The notes beneath the pieces were generated by a model. The model did no database searches. It was given only the letters and a program-made list of their open reading frames with translations, and was not told the DNA's origin. Source: Nitrospirales bacterium (lineage in GTDB: Bacteria > Nitrospirota > Nitrospiria > Nitrospirales > UBA8639). From it: a stretch of DNA of 64,000 nt. The DNA is taken from positions 4,032,001-4,096,000 of the forward strand of contig OY820905.2 in the NCBI GenBank assembly GCA_963555755.3, written 5' to 3'. Position 1 is the first letter of the stretch. Each line of letters begins with the position of its first letter. Position numbers and translations under genes: made by a program. This document shows, piece by piece, positions 22,493-44,695 of this stretch.

Positions 22493-22649
22493 GGGTTCGC
22501 ACAAGAATAACTTCCCATGTTTGGGCGTTGATCCATCCCGTCTGGCGGCGTTGCTCGTCCTTTCCATACGAGGAGTATGCGCAGTCCTCCCGCCTTGCCA
22601 GACAGGTGTCTCAGCACCCAAACATGGGAAGTTATTCTTGCGCGAACCC
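22493..22649. mobile_element. MITE family C (157 bp)
   Basis: GGGTTCGC(A/G)CAAGAATA IRs, TAA duplication; copies at 31836-31992 and 40735-40891. Confidence 0.88.
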
Positions 22650-28110: not shown

Positions 28111-29267
28111 CTAACTTGATTGGTCAGTCTCTCCCCGGAACAACTGCACGTAAGCGGCGAAAATAAAAAGCCGATTTCGTTTTTGTCCAGTCATCTCACG
28201 CAGAACATCAAGTTTTATGAAATCTGTGATAAGGGCTGCCGCGGTGTTGGTCTGCACTTTGAGGCGTTCGGCCACTAATTTGATGGTTACCACTGGGTAT
28301 TCATACAACAGTCGCATAAGGGTCTGAGCGTTGTGTATACGTCGGGCATGGAAGGTGGGCATGACTTCGCGTTCTAGACCTTCTTTGAGGGTGAGAATGT
28401 TCTTAAAGACCTGACTGGATTGAGCTGCTGTTTCGGAAATGCCCAGAAGAAAAAATCGCAACCAGGGTTCCAGTTTGTTGGTGGTTCGCACAGCCATGAG
28501 TTGATCATAGTATTCGGCTTTATGGCGCTCGAAAAAATCAGAGAGTAGAGCGCAGGCTTGTGCAACAGGCCGAAGCTGACCAAATATAAGACAATGAGTA
28601 GGCGCCCCAGACGTCCATTTCCGTCCAGAAACGGATGGATGGTCTCAAATTGATAGTGGATGATGGCAATCTTGATCAGGTGCGGCACATGGATGGCTTC
28701 ATTGTGCATGAACTGTTCAAGGTCACTCATCAAATCTGGCACGTGATCGTGGTGAGGCGGAATAAAGGTCGCGTGTTTGAGGTTGATGCCAATCCAGTTT
28801 TGGCTCGTCCGAAAATCTCCAGGAAATTTGTGTTTTCCCCGCACGCCTTGTAAGAGCACAGCGTGGGTTTCCTTTATCAAGCGATTTGACAAGGGTAGTG
28901 TGGGCAGTTGTTGAATAGCATAATTGGTGGCTTTGATATAATTCTGCACCTCTTGCCAATCCAGACGTTTTTCCGGATCGACATCGCTTTCATTGACTAA
29001 GGCCTCATCGAAGTTGGTCTGAGTCCCCTCGATTCGACTGGAGGTGGTTGCTTCTTTGGTGATATGCATCCGGATAAAAAAGTCTACATCCGGGATGAGT
29101 TGGGAATAGGCATTCAGTTCACCAAGGAGCAGAGTGGCTTCTTCTAGCAAGGTGAGAGTTTGTGGGTCTACTTGCCATTCTTTATTGATTGCCGTGGGGA
29201 GGAAGGTTTTGTATTCGTACTCCTGCTCGTAAGATCCTGCGTGGAAGGTATTGATATTTATAGGCAT
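28111..29267 (-). pseudogene. fic: Fic-family protein, frameshifted near 28545
   Basis: [23 protein letters not shown](L)SDFFERHK restored by adding one C; C-terminal wHTH in the other frame. Confidence 0.85.
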
Positions 29268-29629
29268 TTTTTCAGCATGGCTACAATTTGATATTGCCAA
29301 GTCATTTATGTCAATTTGTGACCATTAACTGACATAAGCGAAATTATATGTCAACTCATTTGTTGGTGCATAAACACAGATTCAGGGATGTGGGGTCAAA
29401 TGCGAGGTGGGTTCAGGCCTAGATATGGGGTCATTGTCGATTCGTTCTGTTGTCAGGGATATCCTCCATGCAGTGGCGGACTGATTGCAGGTGATAATCT
29501 CCTCTTTAACGAGGCGGAAATTGGGGTGCCGGTCATTAAAAAAAGGGTCAATCTTATTTATTAATTGATTGGGAAGTGGCCTATATTTTTTTAACGTAGA
29601 AATTGCAGTTAGGCGCGATGTAGTTCAAG

Positions 29630-30460
29630 TTATTTTTTCGCGAGCCCTAAGGGCGGGCGGATTTTTCGGATGATTTCTTTCATAAGAATTTTTTTCGGCA
29701 CCCAATTTGTGAGGAGGGACCAAAGCGTACCTTGCCATCCAATGGTGACGACCGTTTGATTTTTCTGTAAGGCCGCAAGGGATACCTGAACGACTTGTGA
29801 AGCCGTCTGCATGGAGATGGGGCTCGATGGCTGAAACCCCGCGGAAGCATGAAAGTCTGTTTCCGTCTGGCCTGGGCAACAGGCTTGTATGTGGACTCCT
29901 GTTGACTGTACTTCTTCGGCAAGTGCTTCGGAAAAGGAATTGAGAAACGCCTTGGTGGCCGCATACTCTGCCAGGTATGGCATGGGGAGCATCCCTGCAA
30001 TCGAGGACACGTTAATGATAGCCCCTGATCCACGTTCTATCATGCCAGGGAGAAACAGCCGAGTGCTTTCCACGACCGTTTGGATATGCAAATGGAGCAT
30101 CTCCTGAATGCGTGGCAAAGAATGCGAGACAAACTCACCGTATAACCCAAAGCCGGCGTTGTTGATTAAGAGGTCCGGCGTCGGTCGATAATTTCTGGCG
30201 ACCACGAACAATTGATGGGCGGATTGGGGTTGGGCCAAATCAAGGACACACACATGTGCGTGAATGGACTGGTTCGTCTCCAGTTCGTGCGAGAGTTGCG
30301 TCAGGCGTTCTTCATCTCGTGCCACCAGAAGAAGATCATAGCCTTGGCTGGCCAGCACACGGGCATACTCGGCGCCAATGCCTCGTGAGGCCCCAGTGAT
30401 AATGGCAAAGGGGGGATCCGATGTCGTCAAATCGAGGACTCTCTCTCCAGCCATCATCAT
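29630..30460 (-). CDS. Short-chain dehydrogenase/reductase
   Basis: TGASRGIG, NNAG, YAATK. Confidence 0.93.
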   Translation of the reverse strand: MMMAGERVLDLTTSDPPFAIITGASRGIGAEYARVLASQGYDLLLVARDEERLTQLSHELETNQSIHAHVCVLDLAQPQSAHQLFVVARNYRPTPDLLINNAGFGLYGEFVSHSLPRIQEMLHLHIQTVVESTRLFLPGMIERGSGAIINVSSIAGMLPMPYLAEYAATKAFLNSFSEALAEEVQSTGVHIQACCPGQTETDFHASAGFQPSSPISMQTASQVVQVSLAALQKNQTVVTIGWQGTLWSLLTNWVPKKILMKEIIRKIRPPLGLAKK

Positions 30461-30788: not shown

Positions 30789-31592
30789 ATGATAATTGAA
30801 CAGGAAACACGGCGTGATCTCGAATACACGTTGGCAAAGATCGAGAGAGAGTCGGATCTGCTCGTGAAAACGGTGACGGATGCCGCCACCGCCGTGAAAA
30901 AAATTCGCAGCGCAGCCAGTGTGGGAGACTTTCAAAAGCTTCGAGCTGCGCTGGAGGAAGCAAACCAAGCCGCCTCCCGGCTTCAGCAGGGCTTGGAAGC
31001 GACGACCCATAGTTGGGAGTTTGATGAGGTGGCCTATCTGTCGGGGGTTGATTTTCAACAGGACATGTTGGTTATGGCCGAACAGATGGGGGTTGATCTT
31101 ATTGAGCACGAGGGGGTGTTGTTTGCCTACCCCGCGCTAGTTCGGATTCTTCCTAAAGACATGGCGGTCACCATCGATCGCGTTCGTGAAACACGGCTGC
31201 GACCTTCCCACTTGATCAAACGGTTAAAAGATTTACAAACGAGACCGTATCGATTCAAATCCCATGAATTTGTGGCGATCTTGTATGCGGCCTATTCCAT
31301 TGCGGTTGGGATTCGAGGCAAGCATCTTCTTGGAACCGGCATTGTGATTCCGTTAATGGAGATTTATGATTTATTAACGATGTTGCCGCGACAATCATTT
31401 GAGTATACGCGGCAAGAATTTGCACGAGATCTCTACTTCCTCGATAAAAGTGGTGTGACGAAAACGAAAAAGGGACACCAACTTCACTTCCATGCCAGTA
31501 CTGGAATCAAAGACGCAACCAAGACCTTGAGTGTGATTACACAGGGTGGACGGTTGCGGACGTATTACGGCACATCCTTTACTCCTGCGTAG
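30789..31592 (+). CDS. Hypothetical protein (coiled-coil N-terminus), candidate partner of DUF2791-like ATPases
   Basis: 267 aa; RLRPS and YTRQEFARDLYFLD motifs; upstream of the ATPase remnant. Confidence 0.7.
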   Translation: MIIEQETRRDLEYTLAKIERESDLLVKTVTDAATAVKKIRSAASVGDFQKLRAALEEANQAASRLQQGLEATTHSWEFDEVAYLSGVDFQQDMLVMAEQMGVDLIEHEGVLFAYPALVRILPKDMAVTIDRVRETRLRPSHLIKRLKDLQTRPYRFKSHEFVAILYAAYSIAVGIRGKHLLGTGIVIPLMEIYDLLTMLPRQSFEYTRQEFARDLYFLDKSGVTKTKKGHQLHFHASTGIKDATKTLSVITQGGRLRTYYGTSFTPA

Positions 31593-31787
31593 GAAAACGT
31601 TAGACGGTAGGCGGGAGTCGGGAGGTAGTCTATCTCTTTTCCCCTCTTTCGCCTCACGCCTTTCGTCTCACAAGGGTCACAAGGGGCATGAGGTGCTGTT
31701 GATCGAAGTTTGACTCCTTCAATCGATCCTCTTCTGGCCCGTGCAAGAATTTTGGAACCCTTCCGATAGCTTTAGGGGTAGGAGGCG

Positions 31788-32043
31788 AAAGGGCAAACTG
31801 CCTGAGAGGGCAGGACGCAACGCCAAGAGACCCGAGGGTTCGCGCAAGAATACCTTCCCATTTTGGGGTGCTGAGACACCCGTCTGGCAAGGTGCGAGGA
31901 CTGCGCATACTCGTGGTATGTACGGGACGAGCAACGCCGCCAGGCGGGATGGATCGACGCCCAAAGAAGGGAAGTTATTCTTGCGCGAGCCCTCAGTAGA
32001 AGGGGGACGAGCATTCTCCTTTCAGGGTTGGACTGGTTGCACC
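31788..32043 (+). ncRNA. c-di-GMP-I (GEMM)-like riboswitch interrupted by a MITE
   Basis: GGGCAAAC-TGCCT-GAGA-GGGCA-GGACGCAACGCC; second stem GCCA..ACCC / GGGT..TGGT completed after the MITE. Confidence 0.6.
31836..31992. mobile_element. MITE family C
   Basis: GGGTTCGCGCAAGAATA...TATTCTTGCGCGAGCCC. Confidence 0.88.
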
Positions 32044-32193
32044 GTTCCATTGTGTATACCCTGTCCTTGAATGCCCGCTGGCGGGCTCTTCTACCTTTTC
32101 TCCTCCACACAACATTGATTTGAAAGGAAATATACTGATGGTTGCGTTGGTCTATATCGTGTGGTCGTACTTCAAGGGAAAGAGAGGATCGTC

Positions 32194-32509
32194 ATGAACA
32201 TGTTATCCCAGGATTGGTTGGCGGTGATCCAGAAAGAATATGTCCAGAATTACCTGCGACAGGGGGGAACCGCCAACCATTCCTTCTGGGGAACGGTTGT
32301 CCAGTAGGCGCATGCGTGAATATGTGAAAGGGTGGATCACGGAGTGGGATCTGAAGCGACTGGCTCCGGAAGAAGCCGTGGATCTCGAAGTGATACCATT
32401 GCGGCCCAGTTATACAGAAGACACGGAATTGGAAACTCCTACCGAAGGGGATCAGGTTGGTGTTGGTACTGAGGCCTATGCGGCGACGCCAGAGTATGTC
32501 ACGGCGTGA
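32194..32509 (+). pseudogene. Internally deleted paralogue of the DUF2791-like ATPase at 41987-44695
   Basis: N-terminal WLAVIQKEYVQNYLRQGG joined out of frame to C-terminal RMREYVKGWITEWDLKRL. Confidence 0.85.
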
Positions 32510-32527
32510 GTAGTTGTTGAGGATATT

Positions 32528-33832
32528 GTGAACCTTCGTGAACGATTCTCGGTGGTCGGTCAAGTCATGAATCAGGCGATCGCCCGTTTTATGGATCCGT
32601 TGTATGAGCGCATGGTCCTTGTGCTCACGGTTCTGTTTTGCTCAAGTTTGGCTCTCATGCTGCTTCAGGTGTCCCACTTGCAAGGGGATGTGATTGCCTC
32701 GATGGCGATAGCCGATGCCCGGGTGTACACCGAAGCCTTGGATGCCCTGCAGGGTTTGTATTCAAGCGATATTGTGCAACGGGTTCGGTTTCACGATTGG
32801 TACAACATCTATTCATGGACGGCCTTGCTTCTCGTGATTTGGGTAGGTGGCTTAGCCCTCGTTATTAGCAAATTCCGTCCAGTACCAGAAGAATTAGAGC
32901 ATCGGGTTCTGGAACGAACCGGAGACCTTCGAGATGCCAACCTTGAGCTGGAACGTCAAATAGGTGAACGCCGCCTGGTAGAAGAAGCGCTGCGCCAAGC
33001 CCACTTGGATCTCGAACAACGGGTGCACGACCGAACGGCCAAGCTCGCGGAAGCGAACACTGAACTTATGAGAGAAATTCGTGATCGGCAACGAGTTGAA
33101 GAGGATATGTGTAAGGTGAATGTGGATTTGTTGCAACGGACCACACAGTTGGAGTCATTCAATAAAGAGCTGGAGGCGTTCAGCTACTCGGTCTCGCATG
33201 ATTTGCGTGCTCCGTTGCGTGGCATTGACGGGTTTAGCCAAGCCGTTCTTGATGACTATGGTGACAAGCTGGATGACACGGGCAAGCAGTATTTGCAGCG
33301 CGTTCGCGAGGCGAGTCAACGCATGGCCAAACTCATTGATGCCATGTTGAACCTGGCGCGGTTGATCCGGGCGGAGTTGACTTTTGAGTCGGTTGATCTG
33401 TCAGCCATTGGTCAATCTGTCGTTTCGGACCTGAGCAAGGCTGATCCCGAACGTCAGGTGGAGATCGTGGTGGCCGATAATCTTCGGACCAATGCGGATC
33501 CGGATCTGACCAGAGTGGTGCTCGAGAATTTGCTGGGGAATGCGTGGAAATTTGCCAGTCACGAAGAATTCGCCAGAATTGAATTAGGGCTGACCTATCA
33601 TTATTCCCAGCCTGTCTTTTTTGTCCGAGACAATGGCGTGGGGTTTGATATGACCTATGCAGATAAACTGTTCGGGGCTTTTCAACGGTTGCATGCCATG
33701 AGTGAGTTTCAAGGAATCGGGATTGGTCTAGCGACCGTGCATCGTATTATTCTACGCCATGGGGGCCGCATTTGGGCAGATGCCTCCGTGGGCAAGGGGG
33801 CAACATTTTTCTTTACCTTGGGGAACTGTTGA
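32528..33832 (+). CDS. Membrane sensor histidine kinase (Cph1/BphP-type transmitter)
   Basis: FSYSVSHDLRAPLRG, NLLGNAWKF, GIGIGLA; two TM helices. Confidence 0.9.
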   Translation: MNLRERFSVVGQVMNQAIARFMDPLYERMVLVLTVLFCSSLALMLLQVSHLQGDVIASMAIADARVYTEALDALQGLYSSDIVQRVRFHDWYNIYSWTALLLVIWVGGLALVISKFRPVPEELEHRVLERTGDLRDANLELERQIGERRLVEEALRQAHLDLEQRVHDRTAKLAEANTELMREIRDRQRVEEDMCKVNVDLLQRTTQLESFNKELEAFSYSVSHDLRAPLRGIDGFSQAVLDDYGDKLDDTGKQYLQRVREASQRMAKLIDAMLNLARLIRAELTFESVDLSAIGQSVVSDLSKADPERQVEIVVADNLRTNADPDLTRVVLENLLGNAWKFASHEEFARIELGLTYHYSQPVFFVRDNGVGFDMTYADKLFGAFQRLHAMSEFQGIGIGLATVHRIILRHGGRIWADASVGKGATFFFTLGNC

Positions 33833-33942
33833 AAAAAGCCGCCAGCTGCGTTCTCATTGCTCGGAGGACTCAACGTACGCAGCGTACGCCTCGTCATCCT
33901 CGCTGCTTGCGGCCTTGCCGGACGACTTTTTTCAACAGCCCC
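33822..33942 (+). mobile_element. MITE family A
   Basis: CTGTTGAAAAAAG...CTTTTTTCAACAG IRs. Confidence 0.8.
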
Positions 33943-33975
33943 TTTAGCTACTCTGGAAAATGAGGGAGGCAGGTC

Positions 33976-34425
33976 ATGAGTGAAAGAGTCATTTTGTTAG
34001 TGGAAGATCATCCTGACGATGAAGAGCTGACCATGCGTGCTCTGAAAAAGAACAACATTCTCAACAAGGTGGTGATCGCGCGTGACGGGGTGCAAGCCCT
34101 GGAATATCTGTTTGGCACGGGTGCTCATGCCGGGCGTGATGTGAGTGAGATGCCTCAGCTCATTCTCTTGGATTTAAAGCTGCCAAAGATTGATGGATTA
34201 GAAGTGTTGCGACGATTACGGGCAGATGAGCGAACGCGGTTTTTGCCCATCGTCATTTTGACCTCGTCAAAAGAAGAACAAGATTTGCTCAAAAGTTATA
34301 AACTTGGAGCCAATAGTTATGTTCGCAAACCCGTGGATTTTGTCGAATTCACCCAAGCCGTTCAGCAGCTTGGGTTATACTGGCTCATTCTCAATGAATC
34401 GGCTCCCAAGGCCAAAGTCCGGTAG
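33976..34425 (+). CDS. Single-domain response regulator (Rcp1-like)
   Basis: [28 protein letters not shown]. Confidence 0.93.
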
Positions 34426-40532: not shown

Positions 40533-40974
40533 GGGTCTGTCACGAAATAACCCGTACAATTGGGAGGCCCATCTTTGGCCCGGGGCGGCGTTGCTCCTCG
40601 GTCACAGAGCCCCGCTCTGCTCCCTCGTCGCGCCTTGCCCCGATCACAAATCTGGGCCTCCCAATTGTCCCGGTTATTTCGTGACGGACCCTTAGCGCAT
40701 CTGGCACAATACAAAAATGTCTTATCACCACGGAGGGTTCGCGCAAGAATACCTTCCCCGGTTTGGGTGCTGAGACACCTGTCTGGCAAGGCGCGAGGAC
40801 TGCGCATACTCCTCGTATGGAAAGGACGAGCAACGCCGCCAGGCGGGATGGATCGACGCCCAAACCGGGGAAGGTATTTTTGCGCGAACCCTAAGGTGAC
40901 CACGACTTTTTGTATTTCACCATGCACCCCAATATCTTACACGGCTTTTTTGCGCCCAACTGCCGTTTCTAGGT
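40533..40974. mobile_element. Nested MITE: family B (40533-40691) and family C (40735-40891) in the backbone right half
   Basis: Matches 13509-13894 and the family C copies; abuts the TAA of the next gene. Confidence 0.85.
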
Positions 40975-41986: not shown

Positions 41987-44695
41987 GTGAATGTGGCGCC
42001 ATATAGTGAAGGCCAAACTCAGTCATTTTCGGAATCAGATGCTTGCGAATTCCATGAAAGGATCAACCGTGGCATGAGTGCAATTGTGGAATCGCTAAAT
42101 CGTATTCAGGCAACGAGAACGGCGGAAACGCTCAGTGACGAGACCCCCTCGGCCTTAGCAGAACCGGTGAGGGAAACAGCCGTGGACTCGTCTGAAACGT
42201 GCTCATCGGATTTGCGTGATTTCTTTAAGCCTCAGGTTCCCGAAGCCTCACCAAACGAGAATCCTATCTCATCAGTTTATCCCGCCGCCACTGAGCAGGA
42301 TTTGGCTGTATTAACCATGGAGCAGTGGTTGAGTATACTTCAGCAGGAATATGTGGGTTCGTATCTCAGGGATGGAGGAAGTTCGATCAAATTCGCGATT
42401 TGTGCTGGTGAAGATTTACATCTTTCGCTTCAGTCTGAGTTGAAAGCGATGGCCAAAGCCGAGGGACTGGTGTTTGTTCGTATCGATGCCCGATACACCA
42501 AGATTCATATGATGGATCGGTTGTTTTTCAAAGTGGCAAAACAGATCGATTGGGATGAACTCGCCTATAATTTTCTCGTCGCGCTCATACGCGACAAAGG
42601 GTATCAGGTTCCAGCCCAATGGGAAGATTTCAGTCTGCAATACCTCGCACAGCTCAATGACCGAAAGGAAGCGCTTCTGTGGAAAGATGTGCAAACGTGG
42701 GTGGAGCAGGCCATTGAAGGCGACCTGAACCTCTGTCAGGAATTCCGGATGGCCATGGTGTGTGTGTGCATGGCCCAGTTACAAGTCAGTGACGCGGCTC
42801 TCAATGTGGCACAATCCGTCAAAGACTGGCTGCGGGGTGAACTCAGGTTGATCTCCAGCGTGAAACCTGCGCTGATCTTTCAAAAGATTTCTCGGCATAA
42901 TGGTCGGCACATGTTCACGTCATTGACGCAATGGTTACGGCGAGCGAAGAAACCGGGGCTGGGGATCACGATAGACATTTCACGATACCTGGAGGCGAAG
43001 AAACCGAGTGAACCGGACACCACCTTCTATTACAGCTCTTCCGCGGTTCTTGATCTCTATGACACGCTACGCCAATTCATTGATGGCATGGATGATCATG
43101 CCGGGTGCTTGATAGTCGTTCTGGCCCCTCAAGAGTTTTTGAGTGATCGTCGCCGCGGCCTTGATCGATGTGAAGCGTTGAAACTGCGGATTTGGGATGA
43201 TGTGCGTGATACATATCAACAGAACCCTCTCGCCCCAATGGTGCGGCTTGCTGCATCGACTCCAGAGTCAATGTCCCATGCAGTAGGAAATGGCGCGATG
43301 CCACTTCACCAAGGTCGGGCCTCCCTCCGTGACCGGCGGGTGATTGAAGGATTGCGGTCTGGTGTGCCGAATCGAGATGTCATCCAGGCCTTGGGGTGTT
43401 ACCAACCGGAAGTGGAGGGCCGGTTCCAACACATGTTGACTGCGATGGATCAACATGCCGCCGAAGGTCGATCGACGCGAGGCATGATCGTGGAAGGGGG
43501 GTTCGGTACCGGGAAGTCACATGTGTTGGCGTATTTACAACATCTGGCATTGCAGCAGCAGTATATTTGCAGCCAAGTCATTATTAGTAAAGAAACCCCG
43601 CTGTACCATCCATTGAAAGTGTTCCTTTCTGCGATGGAGAATGCTGTGATGCCGGGTCATGCAGGCCAGGTGCTGGTAGACATAGCCAATCGCCTCGATG
43701 TCTGGAGTCCCGCCTACAAGGAATTATCCGACTGGGTGCATGACTATCGAAATGGAATGGATCAGCGGTTTGCCGCGACCATGTTTTTATTCCACCGGAT
43801 GTACAGCGAGCCCGAGCTTCGCCATCGCGTGATTCGGTTTTGGAGTGGCGACTCGTTGGCCATGAATGAAATTCGAACCAATTTGCGCCAATGCGGGGCG
43901 TATCAACAGTATTCCTTCGCCAGGATTCGTGAGGTCGATTTGGCCGTTCAACGGTTCCACTTTGCCGCCAAGCTGATGCGTGTGGCTGGGTATCGGGGTT
44001 GGGTGTTGTTTCTCGATGAGGCCGAACTCATTGGTCGATATTCCTTTGGCCAACGAATCAAATCGTATGCGGAATTAGGACGGGTCTTGGGTGTGTCCAC
44101 AGATGGCGGCATCCCAGGGCTCACTTCAGTGGTGGCGTTAACGGATGATTTTCAATCCGAGATCCTTGAAGCCAAAGGTGATCGGAGTCGGGTGCTTGAT
44201 GCCCTCGGCAAGGTCGGCACGAATGCCATACTTGAAAAACAGGCTGAAGAAGGGGTGCGGTTTATCCAATGGGATTCGACCTTGCTACGAGAGTTAACGG
44301 AAGTTCGTGTGGAGGAAGCCTATCATAAAATTCGACAGCTTCATCGCGCAGTGTACTGCGATAACCAGGAGTCCTTGGCTCAGGCCTATGACCTGCCGCC
44401 CATCGCCTTTACAGGCAAGCGAATGCGAGAATGGGTCAAGAGTTGGGTGACGGAGTGGGATCTGAAGCGGCTCCTGTCTCGGGATCATGTCGAAATCGAA
44501 ATCCGTTCGATCACACACGAGTACCAGGAAGATACAACCTTGGAAGCCTCGGCTGCAGAAGACATGGATCAGCCCTCAGTCGTTGAGTCAGAATTGCTAA
44601 AAACCTCTGAGGCTCTGGTTAAGCCCTCAACTATTTCGGTGAAGCGCAATCCCTTTGCCTCTTACCGTTCGGCATCACCTGAAGAAATTACCTGA
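41987..44695 (+). CDS. Tandem BrxD/DUF2791-like P-loop ATPase (degenerate domain fused to an intact domain)
   Basis: Second half: IEGLRSGVP, Walker A GGFGTGKSH, Walker B WVLFLDEAE; first half: LRQFID and EALKLRIWDDV without a Walker A; start uncertain. Confidence 0.75.
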   Translation: MNVAPYSEGQTQSFSESDACEFHERINRGMSAIVESLNRIQATRTAETLSDETPSALAEPVRETAVDSSETCSSDLRDFFKPQVPEASPNENPISSVYPAATEQDLAVLTMEQWLSILQQEYVGSYLRDGGSSIKFAICAGEDLHLSLQSELKAMAKAEGLVFVRIDARYTKIHMMDRLFFKVAKQIDWDELAYNFLVALIRDKGYQVPAQWEDFSLQYLAQLNDRKEALLWKDVQTWVEQAIEGDLNLCQEFRMAMVCVCMAQLQVSDAALNVAQSVKDWLRGELRLISSVKPALIFQKISRHNGRHMFTSLTQWLRRAKKPGLGITIDISRYLEAKKPSEPDTTFYYSSSAVLDLYDTLRQFIDGMDDHAGCLIVVLAPQEFLSDRRRGLDRCEALKLRIWDDVRDTYQQNPLAPMVRLAASTPESMSHAVGNGAMPLHQGRASLRDRRVIEGLRSGVPNRDVIQALGCYQPEVEGRFQHMLTAMDQHAAEGRSTRGMIVEGGFGTGKSHVLAYLQHLALQQQYICSQVIISKETPLYHPLKVFLSAMENAVMPGHAGQVLVDIANRLDVWSPAYKELSDWVHDYRNGMDQRFAATMFLFHRMYSEPELRHRVIRFWSGDSLAMNEIRTNLRQCGAYQQYSFARIREVDLAVQRFHFAAKLMRVAGYRGWVLFLDEAELIGRYSFGQRIKSYAELGRVLGVSTDGGIPGLTSVVALTDDFQSEILEAKGDRSRVLDALGKVGTNAILEKQAEEGVRFIQWDSTLLRELTEVRVEEAYHKIRQLHRAVYCDNQESLAQAYDLPPIAFTGKRMREWVKSWVTEWDLKRLLSRDHVEIEIRSITHEYQEDTTLEASAAEDMDQPSVVESELLKTSEALVKPSTISVKRNPFASYRSASPEEIT

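What the first reader, a model, noticed from the sequence alone, without database searches (positions are those of the whole stretch)
31788..32100. Cryptic c-di-GMP-I-like riboswitch with a MITE in its second stem
Seen: GGGCAAAC, a 5-bp stem with GAGA tetraloop and GGACGCAACGCC, then a 157-bp MITE. Excising it brings GCCA/ACCC next to GGGT/TGGT around an AAGGGG/CTCCTT hairpin. A GCCCG/CGGGC hairpin with a pyrimidine tract follows at 32073-32100. It deviates from consensus (GCAAC for GCAAA). Inference: the MITE closes on its own IRs, so the aptamer could still fold; standard scans may miss it.
Basis: partly seen in the sequence, partly recalled or inferred. Interest (0 to 1): 0.7.

Follow-up and report, generated by a model that had tools for sequence, protein, structure and literature searches.

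The report
Mobile hairpin splitting a c-di-GMP riboswitch
A 157-base mobile DNA hairpin sits inside a c-di-GMP-type RNA switch; relatives without it carry the intact switch, while the carriers examined also have mutations at two conserved positions, so this is likely a weakened or broken ordinary switch rather than a hidden new design.

Summary
31781-32048 is a c-di-GMP-I (RF01051) aptamer split by a 157-bp element (31836-31992) with 156 full-length copies in the genome and mostly TWA target duplications. Seven empty-site orthologues score 48.6-53.2 bits (cut-off 35). All five element-bearing alleles are missed at the cut-off. Two natural alleles that lost most of the element score 36.2-36.4.

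The element is predicted to fold on itself at no cost to the aptamer. But it sits at the inferred tetraloop-receptor position, and all 7 alleles of its lineage carry A49C and U84A (Vc2 numbering), which break two conserved pairs. None of the 7 empty-site alleles carries either. The ligand contacts G20, A47, C92 and the C44-G83 pair are intact. In this genome the first large downstream gene (a BrxC/D-like ATPase) has lost about 2 kb.

Best reading (0.5): an impaired switch, probably stuck towards its ligand-free, ON state. A still-working, tolerated insertion is a real rival (0.35): 0 of 32 invariant sites vary within the lineage, and the ATPase stays under purifying selection in sister alleles. 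This is a new member of a known kind. Its value is a ready-made natural allelic series.

The parts
30789..31592 (+). Upstream 267-aa gene of unknown function, usually found ahead of the ATPase gene in relatives
   Evidence: ORF; no Pfam or PADLOC family; synteny
31744..31768 (+). Sigma28/FliA-like promoter motif CAAG-N15-CCGATA (inferred promoter of the leader)
   Evidence: CCGATA lies 20-28 nt before the aptamer in 13 of 14 alleles (L075 has CCGACA), CAAG upstream in 12 of those 13. It resembles E. coli FliA sites in PMC4183435 Table 2. Two FliA/WhiG genes over cut-off. The pattern is not enriched genome-wide (102 hits vs 110, 77, 75 for controls).
31781..31835 (+). Aptamer 5' half: P1 5' strand, G20 (31792), GAGA-capped stem, C44 (31816), A47 (31819), A48, C49 (31821, normally A), 5' strand of the second stem
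   Evidence: RF01051 31.3 bits, E 5.5e-4; alignments; numbering
31833..31835 (+). Left copy of the 3-bp target site, CGA here, TGA in the other 6 alleles of the lineage; positions 61-63, the inferred tetraloop-receptor strand
   Evidence: An empty-site contig reads TGA followed directly by GTAGAAG (run X8).
31836..31992 (.). 157-bp MITE with terminal inverted repeats GGGYTCGCGCAAGAATA, folding as one long hairpin
   Evidence: 156 full-length copies among 199 non-overlapping matches in G000; identical 3-bp flanks in 83 of 146 copies with intact ends, 81 of them TAA or TTA; fold
31993..31995 (+). Right copy of the target site, TCA here, TAA in the other 4 element-bearing alleles; here it is predicted to pair G62-A63 into the MITE helix
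   Evidence: P(62 paired) 1.0 here vs 0.00-0.01 in the other four
31999..32023 (+). Distal variable stem of the aptamer (GAAGGGGGA/TCTCCTTTC)
   Evidence: Present with different sequences in empty-site orthologues; predicted
32024..32048 (+). Aptamer 3' half: G83 (32031), A84 (32032, normally U), U90 (32038), C92 (32040), C94 (32042, normally A), P1 3' strand
32049..32137 (+). Predicted expression platform: segment 32061-32068 complementary to the aptamer 5' strand, GC hairpin 32073-32086, pyrimidine tract 32094-32106, ribosome-binding site 32122-32128
   Evidence: Alignments; folding; no canonical terminator
32138..32197 (+). Conserved 19-codon hydrophobic upstream ORF whose stop overlaps the ATPase start (ATGA)
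   Evidence: Intact in 10 of 10 alleles examined for it
32194..32509 (+). Remnant of a 777-aa BrxC/BrxD-like ATPase gene; about 2,009 bp (codons 28-695) deleted between short similar sequences near 32265-32273
   Evidence: tblastn; PF10923 and PADLOC BrxD for the intact orthologue; size
32528..33832 (+). Sensor histidine kinase (HisKA + HATPase_c), open frame, 81% identical to the G002 orthologue
33976..34425 (+). Single-domain response regulator

Best explanation
This is an ordinary c-di-GMP-I riboswitch aptamer with a 157-bp multi-copy MITE inserted in its second stem, and it is likely impaired by the insertion and by two linked substitutions at conserved pairs. Shown: family membership by orthology, the insertion, the linkage of A49C/U84A/A94C to the element lineage, and the deletion in the first large downstream gene. 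Inferred ancestral working: a sigma28-type promoter makes a leader in which c-di-GMP binding holds the aptamer and frees the pyrimidine tract to cover the ribosome-binding site of the 19-codon ORF coupled to the ATPase, giving a translational OFF switch. Inferred history: the MITE hit its preferred C-TNA-G target, which here is the tetraloop-receptor strand. Selection on the aptamer then relaxed, A49C and U84A were fixed, some strains lost most of the element by an imprecise deletion, and this genome later lost the ATPase gene. The likely outcome is a leader biased to the ligand-free, translated state.
For: (1) A49C, U84A and A94C are in 7 of 7 element-bearing or collapsed alleles and 0 of 7 empty-site alleles. 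In 3 of 4 sediment runs laid, an empty-site contig carries the ancestral A49, U84, A94 while element or collapsed contigs do not; the fourth run had no such empty contig (two of the three contigs have depth under 5). (2) A49 was A in 37 of 37 aptamers parsed from 33 of 35 family loci (top-scoring hits, so biased). It is described as a highly conserved A-minor contact that supports ligand stacking (PMC3764141, passages) and as stacking with G83 (PMC11705072, passages). (3) RF01051 falls from 48.6-53.2 bits in empty alleles to 36.2-36.4 in the collapsed alleles, with these two pairs flagged non-canonical. (4) Putting both bases back in silico raises the lower second-stem pairing from 0.04 to 0.68. 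A competing helix 31784-87/31821-24 has probability 0.97-1.0 in all prefixes up to 31995. (5) The insert follows position 63, next to the base that stacks on the tetraloop in Vc2. The Vc2 A62G mutant folds slowly (N 0.17 at first; PMC11705072 section 18, read in full). In this allele G62 is predicted to be paired into the MITE helix. (6) The collapsed alleles also lost the 5' arm of the distal stem. (7) The ATPase is deleted here and carries two frameshifts in G005.
Against: (1) G20, A47, A48, C92, C44-G83, C59-G79, the GNRA loop and the P1 core are intact in all 7 alleles of rows and in the window. (2) 0 of 32 invariant positions outside the search pattern vary among the 7 lineage alleles, against 5 of 76 or 13 of 128 four-fold sites (p 0.17 and 0.048). 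Both variable positions there (G57A, U61C) keep their pair. (3) On the stem branch the aptamer changed at 3 of 40 sites vs 4 of 25 four-fold sites (p 0.25), which does not show relaxation. (4) The ATPase is intact in L071, L072 and L073 with dN/dS 0.07-0.09, and the L070 frameshift sits on N bases. (5) The folding cost is a weak guide: the intact empty allele L074 costs 7.9 kcal/mol, and L074 and G002 have lower-stem probability 0.00-0.04. (6) Two empty alleles each break one pair as well (L075, G018). (7) The OFF prediction holds for 6 of 7 lineage alleles and G002 but not for G005, L074 or G003. (8) No binding or expression data exist, and I found no measurement of an A49 mutant.
Confidence: 0.5

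Rival explanations
1. The switch still works, perhaps retuned to weaker affinity. The MITE is a tolerated 'variable insertion' projecting from a junction beside the receptor, and A49C/U84A are survivable.
For: All direct ligand contacts are intact. The element is neutral in folding energy (7.2 vs 7.3 kcal/mol). No variation at 32 invariant sites within the lineage, and pair-preserving changes at the two variable ones. The operon is under purifying selection in L071-L073. The predicted ribosome-site switch survives (unpaired 0.83 free vs 0.26 held in the window). Collapsed alleles still pass the Rfam cut-off. Riboswitches are known to tolerate self-folding insertions (PMC2258182, passages).
Against: Two pair-breaking transversions at otherwise invariant sites are confined to the element lineage. 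The insertion maps to the receptor strand. This allele has further private changes at both target-site copies and a deleted first large gene. The polymorphism test is borderline and rests on 7 related alleles.
Confidence: 0.35
2. The MITE has replaced or added a layer of control: its long hairpin is cut by RNase III or supplies a promoter, so transcript stability rather than ligand sensing now sets expression of the operon.
For: The element forms a -104 kcal/mol hairpin. RNase III cleavage and promoter activity are reported for Correia elements (PMC10969869, passages).
Against: The element is lost again in L071, L073 and contigs of runs X12 and X18. No sigma70-type promoter match lies in 31550-32550. 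156 copies across the genome argue for a selfish repeat. There is no RNA evidence.
Confidence: 0.1
3. The substitutions mark a changed ligand (3',3'-cGAMP or another dinucleotide).
For: GEMM-I variants that sense cGAMP exist (PMC6456294 and PMC8835794, passages). A c-di-GMP-I-GGC model gives the best E-value for the 5' half (27.6 bits, cut-off 59).
Against: G20, A47 and C92 are the c-di-GMP set (PMC4744006, passages); G20A is the change tied to cGAMP binding (PMC7288161, passages). Position 47 is A, not the G of the GGC model. Five of the 6 GGDEF matches examined show Asp at the GHxxG(D/S) site and one could not be read; that Ser there marks cGAMP synthases is recalled, with only an S347D construct name seen.
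Confidence: 0.04

Closest known systems
c-di-GMP-I (GEMM-I) riboswitch, Rfam RF01051; Vibrio cholerae Vc2 as structural reference
   Same: GGCAAA/GACGCAA core, GNRA-capped stem, C44-G83, G20/A47/C92, position 5' of an operon; orthologues pass the Rfam cut-off; six further copies pass it in this genome.
   Different: 157-bp insertion after position 63; A49C and an A56-A84 mismatch; does not pass the cut-off as it stands; first large downstream gene deleted.
'Variable insertions' in riboswitch aptamers (Barrick and Breaker 2007, PMC2258182, passages)
   Same: Long non-conserved self-folding stem-loop inside an aptamer that lowers covariance-model scores.
   Different: Here the insert is an identifiable multi-copy MITE with known empty sites, it lies at an inferred tertiary-contact site, and tolerance is not shown.
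Bacterial hairpin MITEs: Correia (about 104-157 bp), ERIC (about 127 bp), RUP (PMC3184786 table and PMC10969869, passages)
   Same: Size, terminal inverted repeats, high copy number, mostly intergenic (132 of 156 outside ORFs of 120 aa or more), whole-length RNA hairpin.
   Different: 3-bp TWA duplication with C|TWA|G preference and GGG ends. No sequence comparison with those elements was run. The mobilising transposase was not identified.
c-di-GMP-I-GGC variant (RF03167) and cGAMP-sensing GEMM-Ib
   Same: Same clan and fold; RF03167 gives partial matches (27.6-49.0 bits).
   Different: All scores are below its cut-off of 59; position 47 is A and position 20 is G.

Membership tests
c-di-GMP-I riboswitch (RF01051) | Covariance-model score at or above the gathering cut-off (35 bits) | tested here: inconclusive
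   As it stands 31.3 bits, not met. Natural collapsed alleles 36.2 and 36.4; 7 empty-site orthologues 48.6-53.2. A score for the exactly excised window allele was not obtained.
c-di-GMP-I riboswitch (RF01051) | Ligand-contact bases G20, A47, A48, C92 | tested here: met
   G31792, A31819, A31820, C32040; roles from PMC3764141 and PMC4744006 passages; numbering mapped by counting from the conserved motifs.
c-di-GMP-I riboswitch (RF01051) | C44-G83 inter-helix pair | tested here: met
   C-G in 7 of 7 rows; sequence potential only.
c-di-GMP-I riboswitch (RF01051) | Conserved A49 and an unbroken lower second stem | tested here: not met
   C49 and A56-A84 mismatch in 7 of 7 lineage alleles, 0 of 7 empty alleles; A49 in 37 of 37 family aptamers.
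c-di-GMP-I riboswitch (RF01051) | GNRA tetraloop docking on an intact receptor in the second stem | tested here: inconclusive
   GAGA loop and C59-G79 are present. The insert follows position 63, and G62 is predicted paired into the MITE helix in this allele only; it is also predicted paired in empty alleles G003 and G008.
c-di-GMP-I riboswitch (RF01051) | Expression platform ahead of a regulated gene | tested here: inconclusive
   Platform motifs are conserved; predicted ribosome-site switching in 7 of 10 alleles; no canonical terminator; first large gene deleted here.
c-di-GMP-I riboswitch (RF01051) | Binds c-di-GMP and changes expression | not testable with these tools
   Needs probing, ITC or a reporter.
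MITE | Terminal inverted repeats, short and non-coding | tested here: met
   only shadow ORFs cross it.
MITE | Multiple dispersed copies | tested here: met
   156 full-length copies, mostly 85-95% identical.
MITE | Target-site duplication and empty sites | tested here: met
   Identical 3-bp flanks in 83 of 146 copies; empty sites in relatives. At this copy the two flanks differ (CGA/TCA; TGA/TAA in sister alleles).
MITE | Autonomous transposase partner sharing the ends | tested here: inconclusive
   An IS630 gene between element ends is a nested insertion with its own ends. Two IS5-like elements (DUF772 + DDE_Tnp_1_2) have GGG ends and TA-rich flanks but only loosely similar repeats.
c-di-GMP-I-GGC (RF03167) / GEMM-Ib | Altered pocket bases (G47 for the GGC model; A20 for cGAMP binding) and score over cut-off | tested here: not met
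   A47 and G20; 27.6 bits vs cut-off 59.

The most novel reading that the evidence does not exclude
The aptamer still senses c-di-GMP with a 157-nt MITE hairpin grafted at its tetraloop receptor and with C in place of the near-invariant A49. The empty, inserted and collapsed alleles would then capture a riboswitch absorbing a transposon and being retuned, showing how variable insertions arise and that a class of working riboswitches is invisible to cut-off scans.
Probability: 0.3. Interest if true: 0.55.

Novelty: new member of a known kind. Interest (0 to 1): 0.3.

Why it matters
As it most likely stands it is a tidy case of a mobile element damaging a regulatory RNA, and a reminder that Rfam cut-off scans miss split aptamers. 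Its practical value is a natural three-step allelic series (empty, inserted, collapsed) with two linked substitutions. That series allows a cheap direct test of how much a c-di-GMP-I aptamer tolerates at its receptor and at A49. It also puts a poorly understood BrxC/D-like ATPase with a kinase and response regulator under inferred sigma28 and c-di-GMP control, which hints at a signalling rather than a defence role.

Tried and rejected
Chance resemblance: rejected by orthologous empty sites.

IS630 at G000 C1:2332330 as the MITE's partner: rejected; its other copies have different ends and it sits inside an element copy. A pattern search for the element ends in 151 genomes of the order found matches in only 2 other than G000 (1 and 2 matches), and no partner (G005, G006 and G018, which do carry copies, were not in that sample).

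Intrinsic terminator: 0 found, and the hairpin forms in both states in this allele (0.94 and 0.99).

Decoy pairing by the element's internal GTCTGGC (31882-31888), which a custom model aligns as the aptamer's 3' strand: not predicted to pair in prefix folds.

The custom model R1 (10 empty-site or paralogous aptamers) did not bridge the element. It gave 51-55 bits for the 5' half in 5 of 5 element alleles, 81.5-82.2 for the collapsed alleles, 97.5 for a held-out paralogue and 114.4 for a training row.

Covariation: the 7-row alignment shows no two-sided changes and does not beat the shuffle control, so the structure rests on Rfam membership.

'The switch decayed because the gene died': weakened, as the gene is intact and constrained in L071-L073.

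Expression: no RNA holder listed. The two guessed-RNA runs did not cover the aptamer halves, which is no evidence either way.

The tree did not resolve the order of element and collapsed alleles. The five hits duplicate loci already held and were not counted again.

Four primary structure papers (PMC3146058, PMC2850612, PMC2925111, PMC3356476) were not held, so any A49 mutant data there or in their supplements is unseen.

Full report
Observation. The motifs described are all present at the stated coordinates (positions). Rfam at the gathering cut-off finds nothing in the 64-kb window. A whole-genome RF01051 search finds 7 matches: six above the cut-off (54.1-74.1 bits) and this site's 5' half at 31.3 bits, E 5.5e-4. 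Record titles label related genomes as Nitrospirae, Nitrospirota, Nitrospiraceae or Nitrospinota MAGs, and the metagenome holders are mostly marine sediment.

The insert. 31836-31992 is 157 bp with terminal inverted repeats and folds as one hairpin (-104 kcal/mol, z -11.8). G000 holds 199 non-overlapping matches, 156 of them full length, and 132 of the 156 lie outside ORFs of 120 aa or more. Of 146 copies with intact ends, 83 have identical 3-bp flanks (53 TAA, 28 TTA). Outside two composite repeat families the preferred context is C|TWA|G (C in 69 and G in 77 of 119). It therefore meets the MITE criteria except for an identified transposase.

Empty sites. Of 41 genomes searched with 31400-32600, 18 matched. 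Of 13 loci then fetched, 5 carry an RF01051 hit of 49.2-53.2 bits (G002, G003, G008, G011, G018); the element-bearing G005 locus has none, and 7 loci have no riboswitch hit. A metagenome scan gave 7 more loci: three with the element (L070, L072, L076), two empty (L074 53.1 bits, L075 48.6) and two in which a deletion removed most of the element and the 5' arm of the distal stem (L071 36.2, L073 36.4). None of the 5 element-bearing sources passes the cut-off. The 7 element or collapsed alleles form one group against L074, G002 and G003 on an upstream-gene tree (100/99), with the order inside unresolved. In sequencing runs, a contig skips exactly 160 bases here and another shows the 167-base collapse.

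Where it landed. I mapped Vc2 numbering by counting from the conserved motifs, with anchors from PMC11705072 (passages and section 18), PMC3764141 (passages) and PMC4744006 (passages); the Vc2 sequence itself was not fetched. The duplicated bases are positions 61-63. In Vc2, A62 stacks on tetraloop A33 next to pairs U60-A78 and A61-U77, and an A62G mutant is kinetically trapped (N 0.17 at first, 0.98 after 3 days) while G83C abolishes binding. The insertion therefore turns the receptor's internal loop into a multi-way junction (inferred). At the level of secondary structure it is neutral: holding the aptamer fold costs 7.2 kcal/mol with the element and 7.3 without. In this allele alone the right flank TCA is predicted to pair G62 into the MITE helix (1.0 vs 0.00-0.01 in the other four carriers), although G62 is also predicted paired in the empty alleles G003 and G008.

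Linked substitutions. Of 72 core positions, 58 are invariant in the 7 empty alleles. All 7 lineage alleles differ at three of them: A49C, U84A, A94C (L076 shows two more, caused by a 1-nt insertion in a G/T run). In leave-one-out controls the empty alleles differ at 0, 0, 0, 1, 1, 1 and 3 positions and break 0 or 1 pair. In 3 of 4 runs laid on L071, an empty-site contig carries the ancestral bases at all three sites and element or collapsed contigs do not (depths 2.5, 4.4, 16.7). [quoted passage not shown] Position 84 adjoins the bulged G83. Restoring both bases in silico lowers the cost to 3.8 kcal/mol and raises lower-stem pairing from 0.04 to 0.68. A49C lengthens a competing helix with the P1 5' strand, predicted at 0.97-1.0 throughout transcription of the element.

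Results against decay. All direct ligand contacts and C44-G83 are intact. Outside the search pattern, 0 of 32 invariant positions vary among the 7 lineage alleles, against 5 of 76 (all seven alleles) or 13 of 128 (six or more) four-fold sites, p 0.17 and 0.048. The two variable positions keep their pairs, and the stem-branch rate (3 of 40 vs 4 of 25) is uninformative. The intact allele L074 has a similar folding cost (7.9) and no predicted lower stem, so these energies discriminate poorly. The downstream ATPase is intact in L071, L072 and L073 with pairwise dN/dS 0.07-0.09.

Context and mechanism. A CAAG-N15-CCGATA motif precedes the aptamer in most alleles and resembles FliA sites tabulated in PMC4183435 (passages). 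The genome has two FliA/WhiG genes over the cut-off, but the motif is not enriched genome-wide over controls, so the promoter rests on conservation. After the aptamer come a GC hairpin, a pyrimidine tract, a ribosome-binding site and a 19-codon ORF intact in 10 of 10 alleles, whose stop overlaps the start of a 777-aa BrxC/BrxD-like ATPase (PF10923), then a histidine kinase and a response regulator. No canonical terminator is found. With the aptamer held, the ribosome site becomes paired (unpaired 0.83 to 0.26 in the window). The same direction is seen in 6 of 7 lineage alleles and G002, but not in G005, L074 or G003. I therefore infer a translational OFF switch with moderate support. In this genome about 2,009 bp of the ATPase gene are deleted. 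G005 has two +1 frameshifts and the L070 frameshift lies on N bases. An element-bearing contig in run X9 spans the undeleted gene length, so the deletion is later than the insertion. I did not check the deletion junction against reads of this genome. A 48%-identical paralogue lies at 41987-44695. Breaking an OFF switch would leave the operon expressed, which reconciles a damaged aptamer with a conserved gene; evolved mutations in a GEMM-Ib riboswitch that bypass the ligand are mentioned in PMC6456294 (passages).

Comparison with what is known. It works like, and descends from, RF01051. It meets the ligand-base and C44-G83 tests, fails the A49 and lower-stem test, and is inconclusive on score, receptor and platform. 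Self-folding variable insertions in riboswitches are known (PMC2258182, passages), and MITE effects on transcripts are reviewed in PMC10969869 and PMC3184786 (passages). Three searches (8 papers, two read as passages, 1 paper, listing only, 5 papers, listing only) showed no report of a MITE inside a c-di-GMP-I aptamer, but the library lacks most subscription journals. PMC11571812 (passages), PMC7288161 (passages) and PMC8835794 (passages) gave background only. Unchecked notes from this scan list several MITE-in-riboswitch cases in other genomes, one in a c-di-GMP aptamer, so the event class looks recurrent.

Verdict. A real feature, correctly spotted. Impaired switch 0.5, working tolerated insertion 0.35, MITE-derived control 0.1, changed ligand 0.04. 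New member of a known kind; interest 0.3, mainly for the natural allelic series.

Noticed in passing
window 32194-34425 and 41987-44695; L028:4134-6467; L034-L040: A 777-aa ATPase with BrxC/BrxD-like similarity sits ahead of a histidine kinase and response regulator. No other BREX gene was recognised among the neighbours scanned. Six relatives' loci have two tandem paralogues. The paralogue in the window also has a CAAG...CCGATA motif upstream (about 41917). This suggests a signalling role.
   Followed up: partly
window 32138-32197: Conserved 19-codon hydrophobic ORF ending in basic residues, overlapping the ATPase start by ATGA; a similar end is visible in G011.
   Followed up: partly
L071:1324-1347 and L073; contigs in runs X12 and X18: Imprecise loss of the MITE through a short GCA repeat leaves 8-11 bases of the element in the aptamer and removes the distal stem's 5' arm, which returns the aptamer just above the Rfam cut-off.
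   Followed up: yes
G000 C1:166015-166998 (L006, L086): A close paralogous c-di-GMP-I riboswitch lies directly upstream of a FliA/WhiG-family sigma factor gene, a possible direct link between c-di-GMP and sigma28.
   Followed up: no
G000 C1:272280-272913 (L002, L003); also L060, L065, L069: Pairs of c-di-GMP-I aptamers about 530-560 bp apart recur in several genomes of the family.
   Followed up: no
G000 C1:2332330-2333548 (L082): An IS630-like element (family from recall of its sequence type, not scanned) is nested inside a copy of the MITE.
   Followed up: yes
G000, for example window about 40733: About 37 of the 156 MITE copies share flanks (CTCATCACCAC or CGCAGGTCC on one side), so they are part of larger composite repeats.
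   Followed up: no
window 22493-22649, 40735-40891, 29631-29647: Two more full copies and one lone end of the element lie in the window.
   Followed up: no
window 32528-32950: The N-terminal 141 codons of the histidine kinase differ among lineage alleles mostly by non-synonymous changes (for example 7 vs 0 and 9 vs 1), unlike the ATPase; numbers are small.
   Followed up: no
window 28111-29300 (-): What looks like a Fic-domain gene (label from recall, not scanned) is split over two overlapping ORFs, a probable frameshift. The genome is rich in multi-copy IS genes.
   Followed up: no
L043, L051: Two family aptamers have A at position 20, the base associated with cGAMP binding.
   Followed up: no
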